Source of the DNA: Neocallimastix sp. 'constans'
Taxonomy: Eukaryota
Length of the DNA stretch: 64,000 bases
Assembly: GCA_050613775.1 (NCBI GenBank)
Contig: JBODTK010000106.1
Coordinates: 62,001-126,000, forward strand
Direction of reading: 5' to 3'
In this document: positions 6,097 through 25,586 of the stretch, piece after piece
Layout of the letters: each line of letters opens with the position of its first letter
How positions within the stretch are numbered: the stretch's first letter is position 1
The notes under the pieces: model-generated
Told to the model about the DNA's origin: nothing
The model's database searches: none
The model's input: only the letters and a program-made list of their open reading frames with translations
Program-made: the position numbers and the translations under genes

Positions 6097-9000
6097 CTTA
6101 GAGAAAACTTTATTTAATTTATAATAATAATAATAAAATTACATGAAATTAAATGAAAAAATAACAAATAAAATACATGAAATAAAATATTATATATTAT
6201 AAAATTATAAAAGTGCGTTAGAAGCAATAGCCTCTAACTTTTCCCATTCCTCGATAATAACACCACGTCCATTATTGTGAGTAATAATTTCAGTATTAGT
6301 GTTATCAATCGAATCTGTATCTGGAGGTGAAAATCCATGCCTTATCATTTCGACGTCGACGCTCTTGGTAACGGTAGATTCAACGGAATACCATTTCATC
6401 ATCAAACTAAAAGATCGACAAATTAATGGTATTACGTTTGTTAGAAACTCCGCAATCCCCACAAAATACGGAACTGTTGACGAAGTTGAACTTTGTTTAA
6501 AAATATTGTCAACTAATTGTCTTTGTTCCCCATCATTAACTTTAATTTTTGAATATATTGAACGCCCACCAAGAAGTGCACTCAATATATAATAATAAAT
6601 ATTATTATCATAATCCTTTTCTGAATCTAAAGACACATCCAAGGATTTTTGTTCAATTATCAATGCAAACTTCAAAAAGAGATCATCTAGAAAAGGTAAA
6701 GATTTATTTCTGTAATTTTCCAATTCTTTACAGGCAAAGATCCAGTGAGAAAAGCTAGGTACACTAACACCACAACAAGGGCAACATTTAGGGCAATCTT
6801 CTGAGACGATTTTTCTTTTAATGGAAATACTAATGTCGAATTTAAAACCACACCTAATACGAGAAATCCAAAAGAATCCCAACTGATACTTAGGATATTG
6901 AAATGTTAAGTTTCTGATTTCTGAAATAAATCCAAAATCATTCTCCTTGTAAATAATTGCTTTTTTAGCTTTTGAGGGTTTGAAGACATCTCTTTCCCAA
7001 TAAAACTTTTTTATTTCACTTGTTTTTTTACCATTTAATTTCTTATCCAATTCACGAGTAATATTATAGAGACTAACAGAAGAATTGCGAGATTTAAATC
7101 CGTAACTCCAATAAAGTCCTCTATTAATAATTTTTTGAGCTTTAGAACATCTGCTCTTATTTGAACCAAAGAGAGGAGCATAATATATAACAAGACTAAG
7201 AATAAACGAAATTAAAACATATTTCTTCAATGGGAGAGGAACAGATTTATTAATAAGAAATCGAAAGTACAAATTTAACTTGACATTTAAATTACTGTTT
7301 AATTTGGATTGTATAGGTTTCAGTGATAAAGATTCATCAAAAGGAATACCAAGATAGGTATAGTTGTCAGTTTTAGGTAATTTTTTACTACCAATAAAGA
7401 AAGATGGATCTTCATAATTTATCGATTTAACAAAGTTAATCGGTTTTAAAACAAGAGTAGCACACTTATTAATTCCAAAAGTCATTTCATTTTTAATAGC
7501 CCATTCATGAACTTTATTCAAAATTTTCTTAAGAGCTTGTTTAGATGGAGCAACTAAAACAATATCATCCGCAAAAAGTCCACCACAACAATATTGAGAA
7601 TCTAAATATACACCATACTTATCACAATTATCCAGTATATCATTAATGAACAAATTGAATAAAATAGGAGATAGAGGGCATCCTTGTCTAACACCACGAT
7701 TAATCGAAAATTCTTCTGAGAGATTACCATTAAAAAAAGCACGAGCTTTAGAGGATAGATAAAGATTCTTTAAAAACAGATGACATTTATCTCTAATTCC
7801 TAAGTTATATAATTTGGTCAAAATATTAAAGATAGGAACTGAATCATAGGCTTTTTTAAGATCGAGAAAAGCAAGATAAGTAAAATTTCCTTTAAATTTT
7901 CTTCTTTGACATATCTCTCTAATTGAAATATACAAACTTATGCATTCTTCTTTATTTCTAAATCCAAATTGTTCAGGTCTAACAAATTTATGTTCAAGGG
8001 CATATTTAGCAATTCTATTAGTAACAATCTTCGAAATAATTTTTAAGCCAACATTAATAAGAGAAATACCACGATAATTATTACAATCCGAAAGATCTCC
8101 TTTTTTTGGAATTGATATTATAGAAGCCGAATTCCACTCTTCAGGGAAATCACCATCCCAGATTTTGTTAAATAATGAAAGTAAACATTTAGCACACTTA
8201 GAGTAGTGATCATCTGAAGAATCATCTTGATTATCGGATAAATCAGATTTACTAAAGAAGGCTTTAAAAAATTCAATCGGAATACCATCGGGTCCAGGAG
8301 CTTTATTATTTTTCATTTCAAGCACAGTGTTTTGAATTTCTTCCATAGTAATAGAATCATTAATATCCCAAGTAAGATTATTATTAGGATTAGTTCCAAA
8401 TAAACTTACCCAGTATTCATTATCCAAACTGTGTTGAGTAACATCAGAAGCTAGTTCACTGTAATGTTCAGCAAATCGATTTAATTGATCCGAATGAGAA
8501 AATAAAAAGTTACCCTGCTTGTCCTTTAAAACACTTGACGAAATAGAATTAGAGTACATAGGGCGAGATAGCTTCTTTAATTTTAACCAAGCACTCCTAG
8601 CATTTTTATTACTAAAATCATTACATGCAGATTCTATTGACTGATGAAATTGTTTTGATTTAATAGAAAACTTAATTGACCTGACTTTACCACATATATT
8701 TTTATACTCACGAAGCAAATTTAAAAATTCATCAAGGTTTTCAAGATTAGAACCTAAAGAAAAATTTTTGATTTCATTAAATGCAACATGCTTTTCATGA
8801 GAAAGTTTCTTGATATAATAAGGGCAGTGGAAAGCTGATCCTTTAAGATCACAAGGAACTCTAGCATGAACTTTATCACCAACTTTATTAGCTGTTTCTA
8901 TAAATTTATTGACAATTTCATTAGAACTTAATTCTTTATTATCATCAAATTCATTAAGAAGAATTGAGAAGTAGTTACTTGAGAATATTTCATTATGCTT

Positions 9001-11109
9001 TTCATTACACATGCGTTGGGACCACTTGAATCTTCTAGAAGGAGTAGGAGCACGAAAACCTTCTGAGTCATCTTTCTTACAGGAAAGGATAAGAGGGAAG
9101 TGGTCAGATATATCATTGAATGTACTACAAACAGATACCTTATTAATGTATTCCTTCATTTTACAATTAAATAAAACATGATCAATACAAGACGATCTAC
9201 CATCCCGAGCCCATGTGAAATCGAGACCTGATAAGTATTTAGTGAACCACTGATAAGATGATTTATTAAGTAAACTATCTAATTGGGATTTAGACATATT
9301 AAAGTCACCTACAAGAATAGAAGGTGTATTAGTATGTTTCTTTATCCAATTAGTAATTTCTGAAAAGGCATTCTTTCTTTCTTCCTTATGAGTGACCGTA
9401 GGAACATAAATATTACCAATAGTGCATTTAATTCCCCAAAAAGAAGTAATGTTGACAGAAATGATATACTTATATTCAAAGGGATCAGGAGAAAATGAAC
9501 ATGAACGATGTACACTTATACTAAGACCTCTCATACCGGGTATATTTGGATCAGCTTTACGTAAAATTGTATTATAGTGACAAAGAAATGGGTAATTATT
9601 TGAATGTGCATTAAGGTATTGGCTATTACCGACCTCTTGCAAGCAAATACAGATGGGTTTAAAAATTTCATTAAAGTATCTAATACCATCACGTTTTTCA
9701 TCATTCCATCCATTAATATTCCAACTGACACAAAGATTAAAGAACTGAGTAGACGGTGAATAAATATTACTGTAAAGAAAATCTTTAGCCATTGATTTAG
9801 TTTCAAAAGAAGAAAATTTGTTGTTAAATTTCTTAACTTCACTGAAAGTTCTGATTTTGTCGGTTTGGATCCAATTAATTTTATTGATTGGAAGGCAATG
9901 GGTAAGAAGAAATAAAATATTTAGGTAATAAGTGGGTTTATCATAGTTTATCCTTAAAATGAAGTAATTTTCCATATTAGGTGTGTGTGTTTTTATAATT
10001 CCATGAACTATTTCATTGCAATTGGAAATACGTTTACTAAGAAATTCCCAAAGTTTACTAACAGACCATGATTGAAGATCATGAATAAAGATAAGAATGA
10101 AATCTTTATTCTGAATATCGTATCTTCGAAGACCACGTCGCAAAACAGGTATAGTTGCTGAATTTGAAGAAGTATTATCCATATCAAGAAAGCCTAAAAA
10201 ATAAAATAAAAGAAGAATAAAATAAAAATAATAAAAATAATAAAAAAATAGATAAAAAAATTTTTTTTTTTTTTTTTTTATATATATATATGTAATAAAA
10301 TAAATTAAAAAATAAAAGAGAAAGTAAATTCTCTTTAAATAGTAAAAAAAAAAAAATATTGGTGTTGAATATTTGAAAGCTTGAAATATAAAATTGTTCT
10401 TGATGATTGAATAGATTTTAGATTTTGTAAATAATTGATTTTATCCTGTATAACTGATATAATATTTATAAATTTACTCAAGGGTTAGTAATTTATTGAT
10501 ACAAAATTACTTGTATATACTGTAAAAATGAATAATTGTTTCTTTTTATCTTTTGAATGATTGTAATTCTTTCAATTAATAAAGCGCTTTAAGATGTTAA
10601 AAATTTTCTGTTGAATAATCATAAATTAGCTAAAAGTATATTTAAAAAGAAAAAATATTAGTAGAGAAAGACTATAAAAAAGATTCCCATCCGTTAAATA
10701 ATGTCTTAAACACAAGCTTTGGAGTGAATCAATCTCCTACATTTCCATTTTACAATAGCTACATGAAAGTATAAATAATACTATAGAAAAATACATATAC
10801 AAAATAATGCTAAAGTAAAAAATACAATAGATTCATTACAATGATAATATGTAGAAACTACATGATATTATTAATTATACAACTCCAATGTTACTACATA
10901 TCCAGTTTAAAACAATATAAAACATCAGGTTCACTTTCTACAGTCTTCCAGTATTCCAGTTTTCACTCTTCGTACTAGAAGCCACTTTAGAAAGGATAAC
11001 CATCGATTATCATCAGAATCACAGAAAGCTGTAATTAGTACACCTGATATAGGTTATTCCTTTTCCATCAACCCTCCATGGACCTGGAAAAACAGTCCAC
11101 ATCACTGGG
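6055..11109 (-). mobile_element. Full-length non-LTR retrotransposon (LINE) with single APE-RT ORF, poly(A) tail and 16-bp TSD
   Basis: T-run 6054-6093 is the poly(A) tail. Direct repeat GAAGCAATAAATAAAT lies at 6039-6054 and 11110-11125. About 930-nt 5' leader with no ORF of 60 aa or more. Confidence 0.92.
6205..10182 (-). CDS. LINE ORF: AP-endonuclease, reverse transcriptase and C-terminal CCHC knuckle (1325 aa)
   Basis: APE motifs SWNING, CLQE, GDFN, IDH, SDH. RT motifs KAPGPDG, YRGISL, QFGFR, LDLKKAYDSV, GVRQGCPLSPILFN, FADD, YLG. C-terminal CPCC..HWIFAC. Confidence 0.95.
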   Translation of the reverse strand: MDNTSSNSATIPVLRRGLRRYDIQNKDFILIFIHDLQSWSVSKLWEFLSKRISNCNEIVHGIIKTHTPNMENYFILRINYDKPTYYLNILFLLTHCLPINKINWIQTDKIRTFSEVKKFNNKFSSFETKSMAKDFLYSNIYSPSTQFFNLCVSWNINGWNDEKRDGIRYFNEIFKPICICLQEVGNSQYLNAHSNNYPFLCHYNTILRKADPNIPGMRGLSISVHRSCSFSPDPFEYKYIISVNITSFWGIKCTIGNIYVPTVTHKEERKNAFSEITNWIKKHTNTPSILVGDFNMSKSQLDSLLNKSSYQWFTKYLSGLDFTWARDGRSSCIDHVLFNCKMKEYINKVSVCSTFNDISDHFPLILSCKKDDSEGFRAPTPSRRFKWSQRMCNEKHNEIFSSNYFSILLNEFDDNKELSSNEIVNKFIETANKVGDKVHARVPCDLKGSAFHCPYYIKKLSHEKHVAFNEIKNFSLGSNLENLDEFLNLLREYKNICGKVRSIKFSIKSKQFHQSIESACNDFSNKNARSAWLKLKKLSRPMYSNSISSSVLKDKQGNFLFSHSDQLNRFAEHYSELASDVTQHSLDNEYWVSLFGTNPNNNLTWDINDSITMEEIQNTVLEMKNNKAPGPDGIPIEFFKAFFSKSDLSDNQDDSSDDHYSKCAKCLLSLFNKIWDGDFPEEWNSASIISIPKKGDLSDCNNYRGISLINVGLKIISKIVTNRIAKYALEHKFVRPEQFGFRNKEECISLYISIREICQRRKFKGNFTYLAFLDLKKAYDSVPIFNILTKLYNLGIRDKCHLFLKNLYLSSKARAFFNGNLSEEFSINRGVRQGCPLSPILFNLFINDILDNCDKYGVYLDSQYCCGGLFADDIVLVAPSKQALKKILNKVHEWAIKNEMTFGINKCATLVLKPINFVKSINYEDPSFFIGSKKLPKTDNYTYLGIPFDESLSLKPIQSKLNSNLNVKLNLYFRFLINKSVPLPLKKYVLISFILSLVIYYAPLFGSNKSRCSKAQKIINRGLYWSYGFKSRNSSVSLYNITRELDKKLNGKKTSEIKKFYWERDVFKPSKAKKAIIYKENDFGFISEIRNLTFQYPKYQLGFFWISRIRCGFKFDISISIKRKIVSEDCPKCCPCCGVSVPSFSHWIFACKELENYRNKSLPFLDDLFLKFALIIEQKSLDVSLDSEKDYDNNIYYYILSALLGGRSIYSKIKVNDGEQRQLVDNIFKQSSTSSTVPYFVGIAEFLTNVIPLICRSFSLMMKWYSVESTVTKSVDVEMIRHGFSPPDTDSIDNTNTEIITHNNGRGVIIEEWEKLEAIASNALL

Positions 11110-12452: not shown

Positions 12453-13737
12453 TTAGCAAACTTTTTGGTAGCAACCTCCAATCATTTCAAAACGGCATCC
12501 AGCCATTTCAAATTCTGATGGATAGGTTAACCTTGGATAATCATGACACTTCTTATATTCATTACTTTGAATATTCATCCATGCTGGGAAAGGTCTCATA
12601 CCTAAATCCATACTAAGAGTTTGAAGTGCTAGTGCAGTTTCAACAGCTTCAAAAATTTGATTAGTATCAATATTAAGATTAACAGAATGATTTACTTTCT
12701 TTCCCATATTTGAGTTATTCATATTATTTGGACTATTATTATTATTATTATTGCAAATATTTTCCCAACTCTGTCTTTGGACAGCATTACAGTTATTCAC
12801 ATTATATCCATCATTAACTGGATAAGAATTACTACGACTGTTTGTATCTATTGGCATATTATTGTAGTTCTTTATATTTGATGTATTCTTCACTTGAAGT
12901 GATGAATTCATTGAATTATTACGGGCTGCAAATGCTTTAGAAGCATTAACTTTTGGATGAGATCTTCTTCTTTTTCTTTCAGTTGTGATTCCATTATCAG
13001 ATACGGATGATCTACGTTTCCTAGAAGTACCAGTAATGGTTGAAGAATACTTAGCTGAAGAATTTTTAGACAATGGAACTGGAGTATTTGTCGCGGTAGA
13101 AGCAACACTTGAAGAAGCCGAAGATGAAGAATAAGTATCAATATCTGAAGGAGGTGGTGTTAATTCATTCAAATTATATTTTAATGAAGATATGGTATTA
13201 GATTTATTATTATTGTTGTTATTATGTTTTTGATGTTTTGCTCTTTTTTTAGTTGGTTGAACAGAAGTTGGTGCTTTCGGTCTAGCTTCTTTTGCAAATT
13301 GTTCACCAAATATTTGAGTTAATTCATAACGAATACTATAGCAATATTCTTTAGCGGCTTCATATGCATCATCAAAAGGTATCCAGGTTCCTTGAATTTT
13401 TAAAATACCACCTCTATTTAATAATATATTTAAATCATATTTTTAAAAAATTAAATTAACAAACTTTTAATAAAAGCATTTTTTAATAATATCTTTTAAT
13501 ATACCTTATCTTTCTAATATCTTTTGCTGTTTTTTCAACATTTTCCATCTCTTTCATTATATTTCTTCCTTCACCCCTTTTACTCCATCCCATGGCTTTA
13601 CGAATACTAGTCCAATTTACATAACCACATTCTGAATCCCACATAACTATAGTACCATTAGAACTAATAAATTCGTATACAGATATATAACCGCGTTCAT
13701 CTTGTGAGGTATTGTAGATATTCTTATTAATAGTCAT
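12453..13737 (-). CDS. APSES/KilA-N domain transcription factor, Xbp1-like; two exons (13737-13505, 13413-12453)
   Basis: Splicing out the GT..AG intron 13504-13414 gives VMWDSECGYVNWTSIRKA...KIRGGILKIQGTWIPFDDAYEAAKEYCYSIRYELTQIFG, the Xbp1-type APSES signature, followed by an S/N-rich tail. Confidence 0.85.
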
Positions 13738-19032: not shown

Positions 19033-19291
19033 TGTTAGAATACAAAGAAAAATATATTAAATTTATATTAAAATAATTTATGTGTATTAAATAAATTAAA
19101 AGATATTTTTATAATACAACGAACTCGTTGTTAAGCTAATACAATGAAATATATTATGTAATAATTTCTCGTTATATTTTTATTTAGCCACAAATAGTAT
19201 AAATACAAATGTAATCTTATAAATTTTAAAAATCAAGTAATTACTCATATTAAAATAAATAAACTTTAATCAATAAAATATTTTATAAACA
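19033..19291 (+). repeat. Copia 5' LTR
   Basis: TGTTAG...AAACA, repeated at 25329-25586. Confidence 0.93.
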
Positions 19292-19293
19292 AA

Positions 19294-19314
19294 AGATTAA
19301 GAGTCTCATCCTCT
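19294..19314 (+). promoter_or_regulatory. Primer-binding site complementary to the anticodon/D-arm region of tRNA-Lys(CUU)
   Basis: AGATTAAGAGTCTCATCCTCT is the reverse complement of AGAG(C)ATGAGACTCTTAATCT, the conserved eukaryotic tRNA-Lys(CUU) sequence as recalled (one mismatch). Confidence 0.75.
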
Positions 19315-19329
19315 TATACTATCTACGAC

Positions 19330-22300
19330 ATGTCTAACGAAACCAAATTAAGAACTGAAGATATTCTCAATAAGGATAACTTCGAAAACTGGGAATTCCT
19401 TATTAAAAACATTCTCAAATCTTTAAAAATTTTACAGTATGTAAATGAGAATGTAATCGGTAAATTAAATGATAAGCTTAAGGAGGAAAAGGGAAAACCC
19501 AAATCCGACGAAACCGTCAAAGCTATCAAGGACTTGGAAAAGGATATCAAAGAAGCTGAAACTCAAGATGCCTTAGCCAGTACCATTATCAGTAAAAATG
19601 TAAGTCAAGAAGTTTTGAGCTACATAAGATATCTTACCACCGCCTATGATATTATGGAAAAATTAAAGGTCTTATATGGAAAAAAGAAAACTGCTGATCT
19701 CAACTACTGGTTGAAGAAGTTATATTCTTTAAAAGCCAAAAATCTTTCGGAATGCAAGGATATCATTAATCAAATTAAAGAAATCTTTGAAGTAATGGAT
19801 AAGAACAATATCAGACTCGGAACTTGGGAAAAGATCAGGGTTTTATATTTGTCTTATCCAAAAGTTTTAAGAGACCTTATTCATCCTAGTGGAACAGAAA
19901 CAGTTGATGACTTCCTCGAAGAGTCAATCAACAAGATTAATTTCCACATTTTCCTGCATAGTGCTATCAATTTCGATAGAAGCGTCACAGATAAAGGTGA
20001 CTTCATGGATATTGATAACATTGAGTCAAGCGGTTCAAAAAATAATAAAACCAGACCAAGTCCGGAGCCAAACTATTGTTACCTGTGCAAAATGTTTGGA
20101 CATACTACCGATGAATGTAGATTTAACCTTATCAACAAAAACAGGAACAGATCGACTCAAAAAGGCAAGAAGCAATCAAACAAAAAGAAAACTAAAATCA
20201 ATAAAAGGAAAGGTAAAAATAGCCACCAAAAATCAATTGCAAACGTCGAATATGAAGAACGAAATTCTGATGAAGAACTTTCCTTAGAAGAACTTAGGAC
20301 CATGTATGATAAAAATTTAGACAGCTTTGAGCCGTTAGAAGAAAAAAAGAACACTAAAGAAAACTACGAAAATAAATGCATTTCTTTAGTATTAAATTCT
20401 TCAGAAGATACAACGATTTGGACCTTTGATACTGGTGCTTCAGTGCACATTACCAATAACAAAGATATCCTCTCAAACTTTAGAGAAGAAAAGATCTCTA
20501 TGCAGTGTGCAAATAATTCAATCTGTGAGTTTGACGGGGTTGGTACCTATGAAGGAAGTATTAATGGTTACAACATAAAATTCGAAAATGTCCTCTATTC
20601 TAAACAAGTTAACAAGAATCTTCTGAGTGGAATTAAACTTGCGAAGAATGGATTAAAAAGTAACATTAAATCCAGGAGAGACAAAGTTTTTCTCACTTTA
20701 AAAACCACACTTGAAAACAAAAGAACAATTAACATAGGCACATTTAAAGCTAATAAAAACAATACAATTCATATACTTACGAAGAATAAATCGAATTTAA
20801 AGAATTGTATTGACATCGTTTCACCTGAAGAAACAATGGACATAAATGACCAGTCTAAAATGCTATGGCATAGAAGACTTGGACATTTTTATCAAGACAA
20901 TTTAACTAAATATCTAAAACTCCACAATGTCAAAATTAATGAATGCTTAAATTGTAAAATTGCCAAATTAAATAGGAAACCCCATAATGGAGACACTCCA
21001 AAGGCAAAGCATTCACTAGATGTAATCCATTCTGATGTTATCGGTCCTATTTCAAAATCATACTCAGGGAAAAGGTATGTTCTTACTTTTATTGACGAAT
21101 ATACTCGCAAAAGTTGGATCTTCCTCTTGGAAAACAAATCAGAAGTTCCAAGAACAATTATAAATTTCTTTACTTACTTAAATAATCAATTATATTATAA
21201 TATTAAAACTTTTCGTTCGGATCAAGGTACTGAATATAACAATAAAAAGGTACTAAACTACTGCAAGGAACACGGTATAATAAAAACATTTTCACCACCA
21301 TACAATCCTCAAAACAACGGGATTGCTGAACGATTCAACTACACCATTGTAAGTTGTGCAAAAACTTTAATTCAGTGGAGCAAAATGTCTAGTGAGTTTT
21401 GGGATTACGCTATCAAATATGCAAATTTACTTTATAACATAACTCCACATAAAGGAATTGGAAATAAAATTCCAAATGAAATCTATTATAACATAAAGAT
21501 CAGTCTTAAATATATTAAAGTTTTTGGTTGTGATGCCTACTATAAAGATTTTTCACAAGGAAAAATGAAATTTGATAGCAACAGTAAAAAGGGCGTATTT
21601 TTAGGAATAAGCATTGAATCCAATTACTATATAATTATGGATTCAAAGGACTACAGTATTCACTTAGTAAGAGAAGCAGTATTTGATGAAGAAACTCCAT
21701 CAAATTTAACAACCAAGATACGCAACAATAAATTACCAACCAACATTTTCAATAACGACAATTATATTTACGAATTACCAATTATCAACTCTAACGAAAA
21801 TGAAAATACATACGATGATTCTGGAAAATTGATATACAATGAAGAATCTAATGAAGAATCTAATGAAGAATCTAATGAAGAATCTAATGAAGAAAATACA
21901 GAATCCAAAGAAAATAATTCTTCATCAAGAAAAGGTAAGGAATCAGAAATTGATTCACCTGTTTCATCTATTAAAAACAATTATATTAATAAAATTATAA
22001 ATACTCCTATTACTAACAACAAGAAAGATGAGAATAATAACTCTGCTAAAGGTAAGGAACCTGAAGACAATTATCTAAATGATGAAAAAATTGAATCCAT
22101 TGATGATCTCGCTTCAGATTTCCAATCTATTAGTGTTTCAAATGATGAATCAAATTTCTCTGGGGACATTTCTTTAGAAAAGGATAAAATAAAATTTAAT
22201 CCATCCACTAAAAGAAAGTCATCAACTTGTAATATTTCACCTACCAAAAAGAAGATTAACTTAAACAATGAAATATTAAACACTGTTCCCCTTAAACATA

Positions 22301-22506
22301 AATTGATTCATTCCGAACATCCAGAGAGTAAGAAATTAAGACCATCCATGAATGAATCGCATAAAAGACCTGGAAACCCTATTCAATCAGTAACAAAAAG
22401 CACAAGATCTCCCTCGACAATGTTGAAACTTCTAAAAGATGTATTACTGAAACACCTCTTTCATATAAACAAGCCATCACGCGTTCAGATAAAATTCGGT
22501 GGATAG
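19330..22506 (+). CDS. Copia gag-protease-integrase ORF
   Basis: CCHC knuckle CYLCKMFGHTTDEC, protease WTFDTGAS, GAG-pre-integrase LWHRRLGH, integrase HSDV..FRSDQGTEY..PQNNGIAER, FGC..KGVFLG. Confidence 0.93.
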   Translation: MSNETKLRTEDILNKDNFENWEFLIKNILKSLKILQYVNENVIGKLNDKLKEEKGKPKSDETVKAIKDLEKDIKEAETQDALASTIISKNVSQEVLSYIRYLTTAYDIMEKLKVLYGKKKTADLNYWLKKLYSLKAKNLSECKDIINQIKEIFEVMDKNNIRLGTWEKIRVLYLSYPKVLRDLIHPSGTETVDDFLEESINKINFHIFLHSAINFDRSVTDKGDFMDIDNIESSGSKNNKTRPSPEPNYCYLCKMFGHTTDECRFNLINKNRNRSTQKGKKQSNKKKTKINKRKGKNSHQKSIANVEYEERNSDEELSLEELRTMYDKNLDSFEPLEEKKNTKENYENKCISLVLNSSEDTTIWTFDTGASVHITNNKDILSNFREEKISMQCANNSICEFDGVGTYEGSINGYNIKFENVLYSKQVNKNLLSGIKLAKNGLKSNIKSRRDKVFLTLKTTLENKRTINIGTFKANKNNTIHILTKNKSNLKNCIDIVSPEETMDINDQSKMLWHRRLGHFYQDNLTKYLKLHNVKINECLNCKIAKLNRKPHNGDTPKAKHSLDVIHSDVIGPISKSYSGKRYVLTFIDEYTRKSWIFLLENKSEVPRTIINFFTYLNNQLYYNIKTFRSDQGTEYNNKKVLNYCKEHGIIKTFSPPYNPQNNGIAERFNYTIVSCAKTLIQWSKMSSEFWDYAIKYANLLYNITPHKGIGNKIPNEIYYNIKISLKYIKVFGCDAYYKDFSQGKMKFDSNSKKGVFLGISIESNYYIIMDSKDYSIHLVREAVFDEETPSNLTTKIRNNKLPTNIFNNDNYIYELPIINSNENENTYDDSGKLIYNEESNEESNEESNEESNEENTESKENNSSSRKGKESEIDSPVSSIKNNYINKIINTPITNNKKDENNNSAKGKEPEDNYLNDEKIESIDDLASDFQSISVSNDESNFSGDISLEKDKIKFNPSTKRKSSTCNISPTKKKINLNNEILNTVPLKHKLIHSEHPESKKLRPSMNESHKRPGNPIQSVTKSTRSPSTMLKLLKDVLLKHLFHINKPSRVQIKFGG

Positions 22507-23245
22507 AAGCTATGAATTCCGAATTACAAAACTTCTATGACAACCGAACCATGATTTTTGTTAAATCGCTTCCTCCTGATGTTAAACCCATAACTACTAA
22601 GTGGGTCTATATTCTAAAAAAGGACGGTAATGGTAATATCTCAAAATACAAGGCTCGTCTGGTTGCTCGTGGTTTCACCCAGAGAAAGGGAATTGATTAT
22701 AACTTAACATATTCTCCTACCCTTAGTTTAGATAGTCTAAAACTTATAATTGCGCTTGCTTCAAAATTCAATTGGGATCTAATGCAGCTTGATATTAAAG
22801 CTGCCTATCTTAATGCTCCGTTGGATAAGGATATTTATGTTAATATCCCCCCTGGTGACAAGAATTTTGGTAAAGGTTATTAGCTTCTTAGAAAAGCTTT
22901 ATACGGATTAAAACAGTCAGGTCGCCAATGGCACATCCACTTCACAAACTTTCTCAAAAATAATGGTTTCACTCAATTGACATCTGAACCATGTATTTTT
23001 GTTAAAATGGAGGGAGGAAGAGCTGTCTGTATTATTGGAGTTTACGTGGATGACTTATTAATAACAGGAATAAAATACTATATAAATAAAATTATTAAAA
23101 GAATTAAGAAAAACTTTAAAGTTTCAAAATGCAGTGAAGCGGATTATATTTTAGGAATTAATATTGAAAAGGAAAATACAAGCTACGTAATTTCTCAAAT
23201 TCAATTAATAAATGATATATTACAAAAATTCAAAGTTTGTAATGA

Positions 23246-23322
23246 AACCTATTAGTCTAGTGGTTAATAGTTGGAGCTCAGTACAAGATGTCACTGGTTC
23301 GACTCCATCTATTACACTTTTT
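23246..23322 (+). ncRNA. tRNA-like Pol III unit in U3 of the 5' LTR
   Basis: A box TAGTCTAGTGG 23253-23263, B box GGTTCGACTCC 23296-23306 at tRNA-like spacing, T5 run at 23318-23322. Cloverleaf stems are degenerate. Confidence 0.7.
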
Positions 23323-24207
23323 GTTTATTGAAAATATTATTTTGTTAAATTTTATTATAAATTATTTTACCAATCAAATTATTAGTTTTGATTTTATTTT
23401 GATATAAAAACATGTAGTTTAAAATTAGTTTAATAATTTCGAGGTTTCATTAACATTAAACATTAAATAAATAAATAAATAAATAAATATCTTGATAAAA
23501 TAAATGATTTGTTAAATAATATTTTAATATTTAAAGTGTTTTTCAATATTTTACATTTATTTGTTTATTTAAGTTAATACACCAACCTGGTGATTAACCT
23601 AAATCGTTACAATGAAACCTCCCTAAAGCAACTAAGTCACCACCTTGGTGTATTTTGGCTCGTTTTAGTAAACTTTAACTAACTCTATTTATATAATTTC
23701 TTTATATAATATATATTCATATATTTAGATATAACTCTGAAAAACACTTTCTTTGGTCAGTGCTTCTGTAATCCTTATCCGACGTTCTATGTTTTCTGTT
23801 ACACCTGATTCTCAGTTCTAGAATGTTCGTTCCATCAAGAAACTAACCCATCCATCAAGGAAAAATCACTTTCTACCAGTTGGAACCCTTTAGCTCATAT
23901 TTTCTCAACGTTTTATGGAAATTTTTGATCTTCTCGGAAACAAGCCCTTCTCCGCGCATCTTTGCTTCTACCACTATTTCTGCCACTGACTTCTGACTTA
24001 TGGCTAAATCAACCACGAATCCACTAGTTGTAATTTCTCCCAGTCTCTGCTGCTGGTTACCTCTAAACTCGCTGTAATTTCTCCCAGATATACTTCCTGG
24101 TTAGCACTTTTATTCTGTGTAATTTCTCCCAGTTTTCATTGCTGGTTACTTAGTTATTAACCTTAGAACGTCTGGAATCCGTTCCTTGGAGGAGAGCGTT
24201 GTAATGA

Positions 24208-24284
24208 AACCTATTAGTCTAGTGGTTAATAGTTGGAGCTCAGTACAAGATGTCACTGGTTCGACTCCATCTATTACACTTTTT
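24208..24284 (+). ncRNA. tRNA-like Pol III unit in U3 of the 3' LTR (second copy)
   Basis: Same sequence offset by 962 bp. Confidence 0.7.
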
Positions 24285-25328
24285 GTTTATTGAAAATATT
24301 ATTTTGTTAAATTTTATTATAAATTATTTTACCAATCAAATTATTAGTTTTGATTTTATTTTGATATAAAAACATGTAGTTTAAAATTAGTTTAATAATT
24401 TCGAGGTTTCATTAACATTAAACATTAAATAAATAAATAAATAAATAAATATCTTGATAAAATAAATGATTTGTTAAATAATATTTTAATATTTAAAGTG
24501 TTTTTCAATATTTTACATTTATTTGTTTATTTAAGTTAATACACCAACCTGGTGATTAACCTAAATCGTTACAAAGTTAAAAATATAAGAAAGTCAAAAA
24601 CGCCTTGTTCAAGCATCTCAAATTCAGCAAAGAATAATGAACCATTCGATAAAACAACATTTAAAAGTGCAATCTGATCGTTAATCTATCTAGCCAGGTG
24701 TACCCGTCCAGATATTACTTACGCTGTAGGAAAGATTGCTAGAAATTCTGAGAATCCTACCATAGCTGATTGGAAAATGGTAATAAATATATTAAAATAC
24801 TTAAATTATACTAAATACTACAAAATTAAATATAAAGGACAGGGGGAAATTATGGCATATACTGATGCTGACTACGCTGGTGACCCAAAAGATAGGAAAT
24901 CTACTTCGGGGTATATAATATCAATGAATAATGATCCAATATGTTGGCAATCCAAGAAACAAACAGTAATTGCCACATCTACCGCGGAAGCTGAATACAT
25001 TGCTACCGCTGAATGTACTAAAAAGGTTTTATGGATCCGAAATATTTTATATGAAATATTCAACATTAAAAAACCAATAAAAATATTCACTGATAACTTA
25101 GCAAGTAAAACGACAATAGAAAACGGTGAACTCAACAATAAATTAAAACATATAGAAATAAAATTTTACTTCAATAAAGATAATATCAAAAATAACAGAA
25201 TAAAATTAGAATACATCAATACCGAAAGGATGTTGGCCGATCCATTAACAAAAGATTTTAATGGACCAAAAATGACTAAGTTTACAAACCAAATCTTTGA
25301 CAAGCAAACATTCTGGTCTGAGGGGGAA

Positions 25329-25586
25329 TGTTAGAATACAAAGAAAAATATATTAAATTTATATTAAAATAATTTATGTGTATTAAATAAATTAAAAGAT
25401 ATTTTTATAATACAACGAACTCGTTGTTAAGCTAATACAATGAAATATATTATGTAATAATTTCTCGTTATATTTTTATTTAGCCACAAATAGTATAAAT
25501 ACAAATGTAATCTCATAAATTTTAAAAATCAAGTAATTACTCATATTAAATAAATAAACTTTAATCAATAAAATATTTTATAAACA
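25329..25586 (+). repeat. Copia 3' LTR
   Basis: Follows the PPT and matches the 5' LTR. Confidence 0.93.

What the first reader, a model, noticed from the sequence alone, without database searches (positions are those of the whole stretch)
23238..24573. Young non-coding mini-LTR element combining tRNA-like LTR heads, self-priming and internal repeats, nested in a Copia RT
Seen: a 1336-bp element with two 374-bp LTRs identical by eye, a perfect 5-bp TSD, a PPT and no ORF. Inference: a recently mobilised TRIM that depends on a Tf1/sushi-type Gypsy partner rather than on the Copia it sits in. The combination of a Pol III cassette in the LTR with self-priming is not one I recognise from described fungal elements.
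Basis: partly seen in the sequence, partly recalled or inferred. Interest (0 to 1): 0.88.

Follow-up and report, generated by a model that had tools for sequence, protein, structure and literature searches.

The report
Self-priming tRNA-headed mini retrotransposon, gut fungus
This is a real, recently inserted, gene-less 1.3-kb jumping element of an anaerobic gut fungus, present at several sites, that carries tRNA-gene promoter signals at the front of each end repeat and likely starts its own copying with the front end of its own RNA; both tricks are known separately, so it is an unusual variant rather than a new kind.

Summary
Positions 23238-24573 form a 1336-bp element with identical 374-bp LTRs, a 5-bp target duplication, a polypurine tract and no ORF over 75 aa. 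It is inserted cleanly into a Copia RT gene in a Neocallimastigomycota genome. Two antisense gene models of Neocallimastix lanati cross further copies with other flanks, so this is a young multi-copy family. The primer site pairs with the element's own LTR (11 bp, 0 of 5000 shuffles), and a 22-pair U5-leader helix completes a Tf1-type 'pretzel'. The tRNA-like A and B boxes are real (3 of 5000 shuffles). tRNA-bearing mini-LTR elements are already described (Helenus/TRIMp3, Kojima 2024), but those use tRNA primers, and in the 26 rust-fungus LTRs I read the boxes sit near the LTR's 3' end. Here they sit at the 5' end, ahead of a T5 run and a TATA box, so they are probably not the promoter of the template RNA. 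No helper element and no transcript start could be found or tested. My searches found no paper on the combination, but this scan noted self-priming TRIMs with tRNA-like boxes before in other fungi (unchecked). New variant of a known kind; interest 0.42.

The parts
23233..23237 (+). Left copy of the 5-bp target-site duplication (AAGTT)
23238..23611 (+). 5' LTR, 374 bp, TGT...ACA
   Evidence: identical to the 3' LTR, 374 of 374
23238..23322 (+). tRNA-like head: A box 23253-23263, B box 23296-23306, T5 run 23318-23322; folds as a hairpin, not a cloverleaf
   Evidence: no ARAGORN or Rfam tRNA call
23240..23250 (+). Second copy of the PBS sequence at the LTR head, complementary over 11 bp to the self-primer; role unexplained
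   Evidence: 1 of 5000 shuffles; in-silico decoy test negative
23403..23409 (+). TATA-like motif 38 nt upstream of the predicted RNA start; weak in an 80% AT LTR that holds two such motifs
23441..23454 (+). Predicted self-primer (23441-23450/51, inferred RNA 5' end) plus a 4-bp extension pairing with 23606-23609 around a bulged terminal CA
   Evidence: pair probabilities 0.98-0.99 and 0.78-0.79
23466..23504 (+). AATAAA cluster, a candidate polyadenylation signal, inside a long R-U5 hairpin
   Evidence: function inferred
23572..23595 (+). U5 arm of the U5-leader helix
23612..23621 (+). Primer-binding site, directly after the LTR, complementary to the element's own LTR
23635..23660 (+). Leader arm of the U5-leader helix (22 pairs, -21.9 kcal/mol with the PBS held unpaired)
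   Evidence: 0 of 500 shuffles as stable
24029..24149 (+). Three 32-nt repeats (72-84% to the first copy) in a 44-nt-period array; function unknown
24188..24196 (+). Polypurine tract, 3 nt before the 3' LTR
24200..24573 (+). 3' LTR, with its own tRNA-like head at 24200-24284
24574..24578 (+). Right copy of the TSD
19033..25586 (+). Host Ty1/Copia element (gag, PR, IN, RT, RH; LTRs 19033-19291 and 25329-25586 differ by 1 substitution and 1 indel). It is the insertion target and is already broken by a frameshift and premature stops.

Best explanation
It is a young, multi-copy, non-coding LTR retrotransposon of Neocallimastix-type gut fungi that likely primes its own reverse transcription in the Tf1 manner, using enzymes borrowed from a predicted self-priming Gypsy helper. 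Shown: the anatomy, the clean insertion, further copies at other sites, and complementarities far beyond chance. Inferred steps: (1) RNA polymerase II starts near 23441, behind the TATA-like motif. (2) The first 10-11 nt pair with the PBS while U5 pairs with the leader, forming the pretzel. (3) The helper's RT/RNase H cuts behind the primer and extends it. (4) After strand transfer, the PPT primes the plus strand. (5) The helper's integrase inserts the DNA with a 5-bp duplication. The tRNA-like A/B boxes lie about 135 nt or more upstream of that start and ahead of a T5 run. They probably bind TFIIIC and yield at most a short (about 80 nt) Pol III RNA, working as an insulator or booster carried in U3 rather than as the promoter of the template RNA.
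For: PBS:LTR complement of 11 bp, 0 of 5000 shuffles; it meets the >=10 bp, 0-5 nt criterion of PMC6317226. The fold from 23441 has z -7.5, 0 of 200 shuffles. Primer:PBS probability is 0.98-0.99 in RNAs starting at 23441, including the roughly 1-kb predicted genomic RNA. U5-leader helix: 22 pairs, 0 of 500 shuffles; a 10-bp Watson-Crick core in 5 of 5000. This matches the three-duplex pretzel described in PMC10085805. The PBS has no TGG start and its complement forms no anticodon arm, whereas the host Copia's does. Further copies: N. lanati model KAG4082282.1 crosses a full two-LTR copy that matches this one at the amino-acid level and ends in a different flank. KAG4105159.1 crosses a diverged copy with a third flank that keeps the PBS junction, leader arm and head. 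One 47-aa interior peptide is on record from 28 JGI/IMG contigs. 20 of 24 listed runs hold 86-93% of the element's 91 sampled words.
Against: No helper element was found, and no genome was available to look for one. No transcript start was measured: laid almost nothing on the element. The pretzel is a pseudoknot that ViennaRNA cannot fold whole; the unconstrained fold prefers a local U5 hairpin (probability 0.65) and gives the U5-leader helix 0.0. U5 and the leader hold twin palindromes, which makes cross-pairing easier. The TATA-like motif is weak evidence in AT-rich DNA. The element has T5 but no T6 runs, so Pol III read-through is not excluded, although the absence is not significant (9% of shuffles). 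The other copies are seen only through spliced gene models, so their TSDs and exact bases were not seen. Stronger conservation of head and PBS than of the interior in the diverged copy is not significant (1 of 40 against 8 of 97 differences, counted by eye; Fisher p 0.28).
Confidence: 0.6

Rival explanations
1. A true TRIMp3 that also self-primes: Pol III starts at the LTR head, reads through the T5 runs and makes the template RNA. The self-primer is then released from inside a 5'-extended RNA.
For: Canonical A and B boxes lie where a Pol III start would fall at about LTR +1. There is no T6 run on the + strand of LTR plus interior. Primer:PBS still forms in RNAs starting at 23238 (0.99 in 463 nt, 0.74 in 1243 nt). 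Kojima proposes this promoter role for Helenus, without experiments (PMC10886601).
Against: Three T5 runs lie in LTR plus interior, the first directly behind the B box. The absence of T6 is not significant (9% of shuffles). In the 26 complete rust Helenus LTRs read by eye the B box lies about 30-65 nt from the LTR's 3' end, against 305 nt here. In Tf1 the primer is the RNA's very 5' end (PMC7175516). The element is longer than any Helenus (1336 against at most 1263 bp).
Confidence: 0.2
2. A plain internal-deletion derivative of an autonomous self-priming Gypsy that itself carries this LTR, so the tRNA-like head belongs to the parent and is not a TRIM invention. This is compatible with the best explanation's priming steps.
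For: Pretzel, PPT and TGT...ACA ends look like those of an autonomous Tf1/sushi element. The LTR has a normal U3-R-U5 layout and is longer than any Helenus LTR (374 against at most 323 bp).
Against: No coding relic was found. The 75-aa antisense frame has no Pfam match above the cut-off, and its only homologues are gene models over copies of the same element. Two other copies show the same short interior, so the deletion was at least not a one-off.
Confidence: 0.15
3. The helper is a Copia: either the host family or a self-priming Copia lineage akin to plant TAR/Houba.
For: Fungal Helenus depend on Copia and make 5-bp TSDs (PMC10886601). TAR Copia are predicted to self-prime (PMC6317226). The element sits in a Copia.
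Against: The host Copia shares no blastn similarity with the element. Its PBS is the complement of an anticodon arm with a CUU loop, and its LTR ends and PPT differ. The copy in KAG4105159.1 sits in non-Copia flanks. The three-duplex pretzel is described for Tf1/sushi Gypsy elements (PMC10085805).
Confidence: 0.1

Closest known systems
Helenus / TRIMp3 (Kojima 2024, PMC10886601; fungal families of Pucciniales and Agaricomycetes)
   Same: Non-coding LTR element with a tRNA-like A/B-box unit in both LTRs that is not a working tRNA, a PPT and a 5-bp TSD.
   Different: Helenus PBSs match tRNA 3' ends or anticodon loops, and fungal families are tied to Copia; this PBS matches the element's own LTR. 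The unit sits at LTR positions 16-69 of 374, not near the 3' end. The element is longer (1336 against 311-1263 bp). Six gut-fungus or chytrid names and four sequence motifs gave no hit in the supplement (line breaks can hide a motif).
Tf1/Tf2, Tj1, Tosmo1-3, Tcry1 (Tf1/sushi self-priming chromoviruses; PMC10085805, PMC7175516, PMC4600332)
   Same: Self-primer of 10-11 nt complementary to a PBS next to the LTR, with flanking duplexes (pretzel) and TG...CA ends.
   Different: Those are autonomous and encode Gag and Pol; this element encodes nothing. No tRNA-like LTR unit is mentioned for them in the passages read.
Cassandra and Ajax (5S-bearing TRIMs; PMC10886601)
   Same: Pol III-type promoter motifs inside the LTR of a non-autonomous element.
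   Different: They carry 5S rather than tRNA boxes and use tRNA primers (shown for Ajax in that paper). Cassandra's Pol III transcript runs from LTR to LTR.
TAR (Houba, Osr-1) Copia and Tcn1 Gypsy of plants (PMC6317226)
   Same: Predicted self-priming by the same >=10-bp criterion.
   Different: Autonomous plant elements; no link to this family was tested.

Membership tests
TRIM | Two LTRs, PPT, TSD, no coding capacity | tested here: met
TRIM | Shorter than 1000 bp | tested here: not met
   1336 bp; limit from PMC10886601 and PMC6934838
TRIM | Repeated family with independent insertions | tested here: met
   three different flanks: window, KAG4082282.1, KAG4105159.1; TSDs of the other copies not seen
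Helenus (TRIMp3) | tRNA-like unit with B box (GGTTC) in both LTRs | tested here: met
Helenus (TRIMp3) | A box with TRGCY and YGG, as in most families | tested here: inconclusive
   TAGTC...TGG: YGG met, one mismatch to TRGCY
Helenus (TRIMp3) | PBS complementary to a tRNA 3' end or anticodon loop | tested here: not met
   no TGG start, no anticodon arm, complementary to its own LTR; the host tRNA set was not available for an exhaustive test
Helenus (TRIMp3) | Length 311-1263 bp, LTR at most 323 bp | tested here: not met
   1336 bp and 374 bp
Helenus (TRIMp3) | Pol III promoter drives the template RNA | not testable with these tools
   no raw reads; one search gave no starts or ends
Helenus (TRIMp3) | Sequence kinship to a described family | tested here: inconclusive
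   4 motifs absent from the supplement; no full alignment run, 2 of 11 supplement parts read
Tf1/sushi self-priming group | LTR segment complementary over >=10 bp to sequence starting 0-5 nt after the 5' LTR | tested here: met
   11 bp, 0 of 5000 shuffles
Tf1/sushi self-priming group | Three-duplex pretzel | tested here: met
   in silico only; the pseudoknot was not folded as a whole
Tf1/sushi self-priming group | Self-primer is the RNA's 5' end and is cut off by RNase H | not testable with these tools
   no transcript data
Tf1/sushi self-priming group | Own Gag-Pol with chromodomain integrase | tested here: not met
   no ORF over 75 aa; it works like the group but is not an autonomous member

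The most novel reading that the evidence does not exclude
It represents an undescribed class of self-priming Pol III-box TRIMs in fungi in which the tRNA-like cassette is uncoupled from both priming and template transcription. The cassette would be a mobile TFIIIC site or short-RNA gene, and its 5' end, which repeats the PBS, could act as an anti-primer that regulates the element or its Gypsy helper.
Probability: 0.25. Interest if true: 0.65.

Novelty: new variant of a known kind. Interest (0 to 1): 0.42.

Why it matters
The TRIMp3 idea assumes that tRNA-like LTR units are the promoter for the template RNA, and this is untested for Helenus. Here the layout points the other way, so one 5'-end mapping experiment in a culturable fungus would test the assumption. 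It extends tRNA-bearing mini-LTR elements and Tf1-type priming to Neocallimastigomycota, whose elements had no hits in my literature searches. A practical point: copies are mis-annotated as protein-coding genes on the antisense strand in N. lanati.

Tried and rejected
No whole genome was held. The window holds no other copy.

Collection scans: viral contigs gave 0 hits, 5 chance hits, no Copia relative and 1 chance locus without a blastn match. Metagenome contigs gave 21 hits, none related. Genome contigs gave 0 hits, then 120 loci for a 15-mer; across all 146 loci then held, blastn found only two 21-22-nt matches in Vibrio contigs.

Reads: laid contigs of 4 of the 24 listed runs on 22300-23690. 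Only two short pieces under 90% identity fell on the element, although those runs hold 87-93% of its words; the tool warns that a filter drops records, so expression, start sites and copy number were not learned. One contig of X15 matches 23179-23237 exactly and leaves at the TSD, a hint of an empty Copia copy; its loose letters were not shown.

Rejected: a functional tRNA; snoRNA matches at E 1.4-9; a coding relic in the interior. The idea that the PBS copy at the LTR head is needed as a decoy for the 3' R copy was not supported: it pairs with 3' R at 0.92, but scrambling it (3 trials) left primer:PBS at 0.97-0.98. Depletion of T6 runs is not significant. The likeness of the internal repeats' ends to the LTR ends (TGTAAT...GTTAC) was noted after the fact and not tested. 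The Atlas search on Sua5 did not place the host; one search did.

Full report
Observation. The element spans 23238-24573. Its two 374-bp LTRs are identical (374 of 374), begin TGT and end ACA, and are flanked by the duplication AAGTT; no frame is open for more than 75 aa. A 9-nt purine tract lies 3 nt before the 3' LTR. It interrupts the RT of a Ty1/Copia element (Pfam RVT_2, rve, Retrotran_gag_2). Seven uninterrupted Copia relatives, of 8 proteins aligned (the eighth ends before the site), continue straight across the site with no residue lost. The Copia's LTRs differ by 1 substitution and 1 indel, while the insert's LTRs differ by none (95% upper bound 0.8%), so the insert is the younger event. 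The host is an anaerobic gut fungus: the best named relatives of the neighbouring Sua5 gene are from Piromyces (89% and 76% identity).

The tRNA-like head. Each LTR carries an A box at positions 16-26 and a B box at 59-69, followed by T5 at 81-85. These are the only B-box matches in 64 kb, and an A+B pair arose in 3 of 5000 dinucleotide shuffles of the LTR. It is not a tRNA: ARAGORN found 0 genes, Rfam gave no tRNA match among 5 hits at E<=10, and it folds as a hairpin.

Priming. The sequence directly after the 5' LTR has no TGG and its complement makes no anticodon arm. By contrast, the host Copia's PBS is the complement of a stem with a CUCUUAA loop (reading it as tRNA-Lys is recalled knowledge). 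The mini-element's PBS is complementary over 11 bp to LTR positions 204-214; 0 of 5000 shuffles met the published >=10-bp criterion (criterion from PMC6317226). An RNA starting there folds with z -7.5, and the primer:PBS helix has probability 0.98-0.99 even in the roughly 1-kb predicted genomic RNA. A 4-bp extension pairs around the LTR's terminal CA (0.78-0.79). With the PBS held unpaired, U5 (23572-95) pairs with the leader (23635-60) in 22 pairs at -21.9 kcal/mol, which 0 of 500 shuffles reached. These are the three duplexes of the Tf1/sushi pretzel as described in PMC10085805. Caveats: the whole is a pseudoknot that was not folded as one; without the constraint the model prefers a local U5 hairpin (0.65) and gives U5-leader 0.0; and both arms are palindromic twins. 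A TATA-like motif lies 38 nt upstream of the primer and an AATAAA cluster just downstream; both are weak evidence in 80% AT DNA.

Is it a family? No genome was held and the DNA scans gave only chance hits. Evidence came through spurious antisense gene models. The 75-aa antisense frame found 1 protein among 38 candidates: N. lanati KAG4105159.1. It crosses a diverged copy collinearly from near the PPT to the LTR start (blocks 8/10, 59/62, 30/34, 18/22 and 22/23 identical) and then continues into a different flank. A search with it returned 20 proteins, of which 1 matched the element and most of the rest matched its flanks. The cluster of that one holds KAG4082282.1, which crosses a full two-LTR copy matching this one apart from residues at model joins and ends in a third flank. 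It also holds a 47-aa peptide identical to the window's, on record from 28 JGI/IMG contigs. Two N. lanati models show the two flanks of the KAG4105159.1 copy together without the element, so that copy also sits in a repeat. Splicing in these models could hide detail, and no other TSD was seen. Also, 20 of 24 listed runs hold 86-93% of 91 sampled words: 14 from two coded organisms (RNA guessed) and 6 faecal metatranscriptomes; the 4 same-study additions hold none. Laying 4 runs gave almost no cover on the element, so expression is not shown.

How it most likely works. See Best explanation. In short: a probable Pol II RNA from LTR position 204, self-primed through the pretzel, copied and integrated by a helper that is probably a Tf1/sushi-type Gypsy (not found). 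The A/B boxes lie upstream of that start and ahead of a T5 run, so they are more likely a TFIIIC site or short-RNA gene than the template promoter. Pol III read-through remains possible, because no T6 run exists (not significant, 9% of shuffles) and the primer helix survives a 5' extension (0.74-0.99). The LTR head also repeats the PBS (1 of 5000 shuffles). It pairs with the 3' R copy at 0.92, but scrambling it does not weaken primer:PBS, so its role is unexplained.

Comparison with what is known. Kojima 2024 (PMC10886601; main text parts 1-5 of 6 read, supplement parts 1 and 10 of 11 read, two supplement searches) describes Helenus: TRIMs with tRNA-like LTRs in rusts, agarics, animals and Selaginella. 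All reported PBSs match tRNAs, and fungal families are tied to Copia. In the 26 complete LTRs of supplement part 1 the B box lies about 30-65 nt from the 3' end (read by eye), against 305 nt here. No gut-fungus name occurs in the supplement. Self-priming is known for Tf1/sushi and predicted for Tcn1 and TAR (passages of PMC6317226, PMC7175516, PMC4600332, PMC10085805). Passages of PMC6934838, PMC6875170, PMC3248453, PMC12859917 and PMC13570524 added no self-priming TRIM. The original Levin papers were seen only as reference listings. Ten full-text searches showed no paper on a self-priming tRNA-bearing TRIM or on such elements in anaerobic fungi; the library lacks most subscription papers, and Repbase and Dfam were not searchable. 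This scan's own notes report Helenus-type elements, self-priming TRIMs and at least two cases combining the two in other fungi. I did not check them; they are not support, but they suggest the combination is not rare.

Verdict. Real, and well supported as a self-priming non-autonomous LTR family. It works like Tf1 in priming and resembles Helenus in its LTR boxes, but it fails Helenus's PBS and size features and is not filed as a member. New variant of a known kind; interest 0.42.

Noticed in passing
window 19292-19307: The host Copia's PBS is the complement of an anticodon stem-loop with a CUU anticodon (half-tRNA-Lys type; identity recalled), a primer type not among those listed for fungal Helenus or Copia in PMC10886601.
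   Followed up: partly
window 19033-25586: The host Copia has nearly identical LTRs yet carries a frameshift near 22387 and premature stops at 22881 and 24675; no clear TSD at its ends.
   Followed up: partly
window 6205-10440 (-): Long ORF (1411 aa) with endonuclease and RT domains: a LINE-type retrotransposon.
   Followed up: no
window 46851-47078: Isolated Copia RT fragment next to a microsatellite.
   Followed up: no
window 12453-13442 (-): ORF whose start looks like the end of an APSES/KilA-N DNA-binding domain (recalled motif; no Pfam hit).
   Followed up: no
window 23238-23244 and 23310-23316: The LTR's first 7 nt pair with the 7 nt that would be the 3' acceptor strand, so the 80-bp head has TG...CA ends of its own and may be a captured miniature LTR.
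   Followed up: no
window 24029-24149: Each internal repeat begins like the LTR start (TGTAAT), and two of the three end like the LTR end (GTTAC); seen after the fact, significance untested.
   Followed up: no
P0140, P0162 (N. lanati KAG4105159.1, KAG4082282.1): Annotated 'hypothetical proteins' that are antisense artefacts over copies of this element; several other N. lanati models (P0143, P0145, P0153, P0155, P0159) match the flanks of P0140 and are probably artefacts over another repeat.
   Followed up: partly
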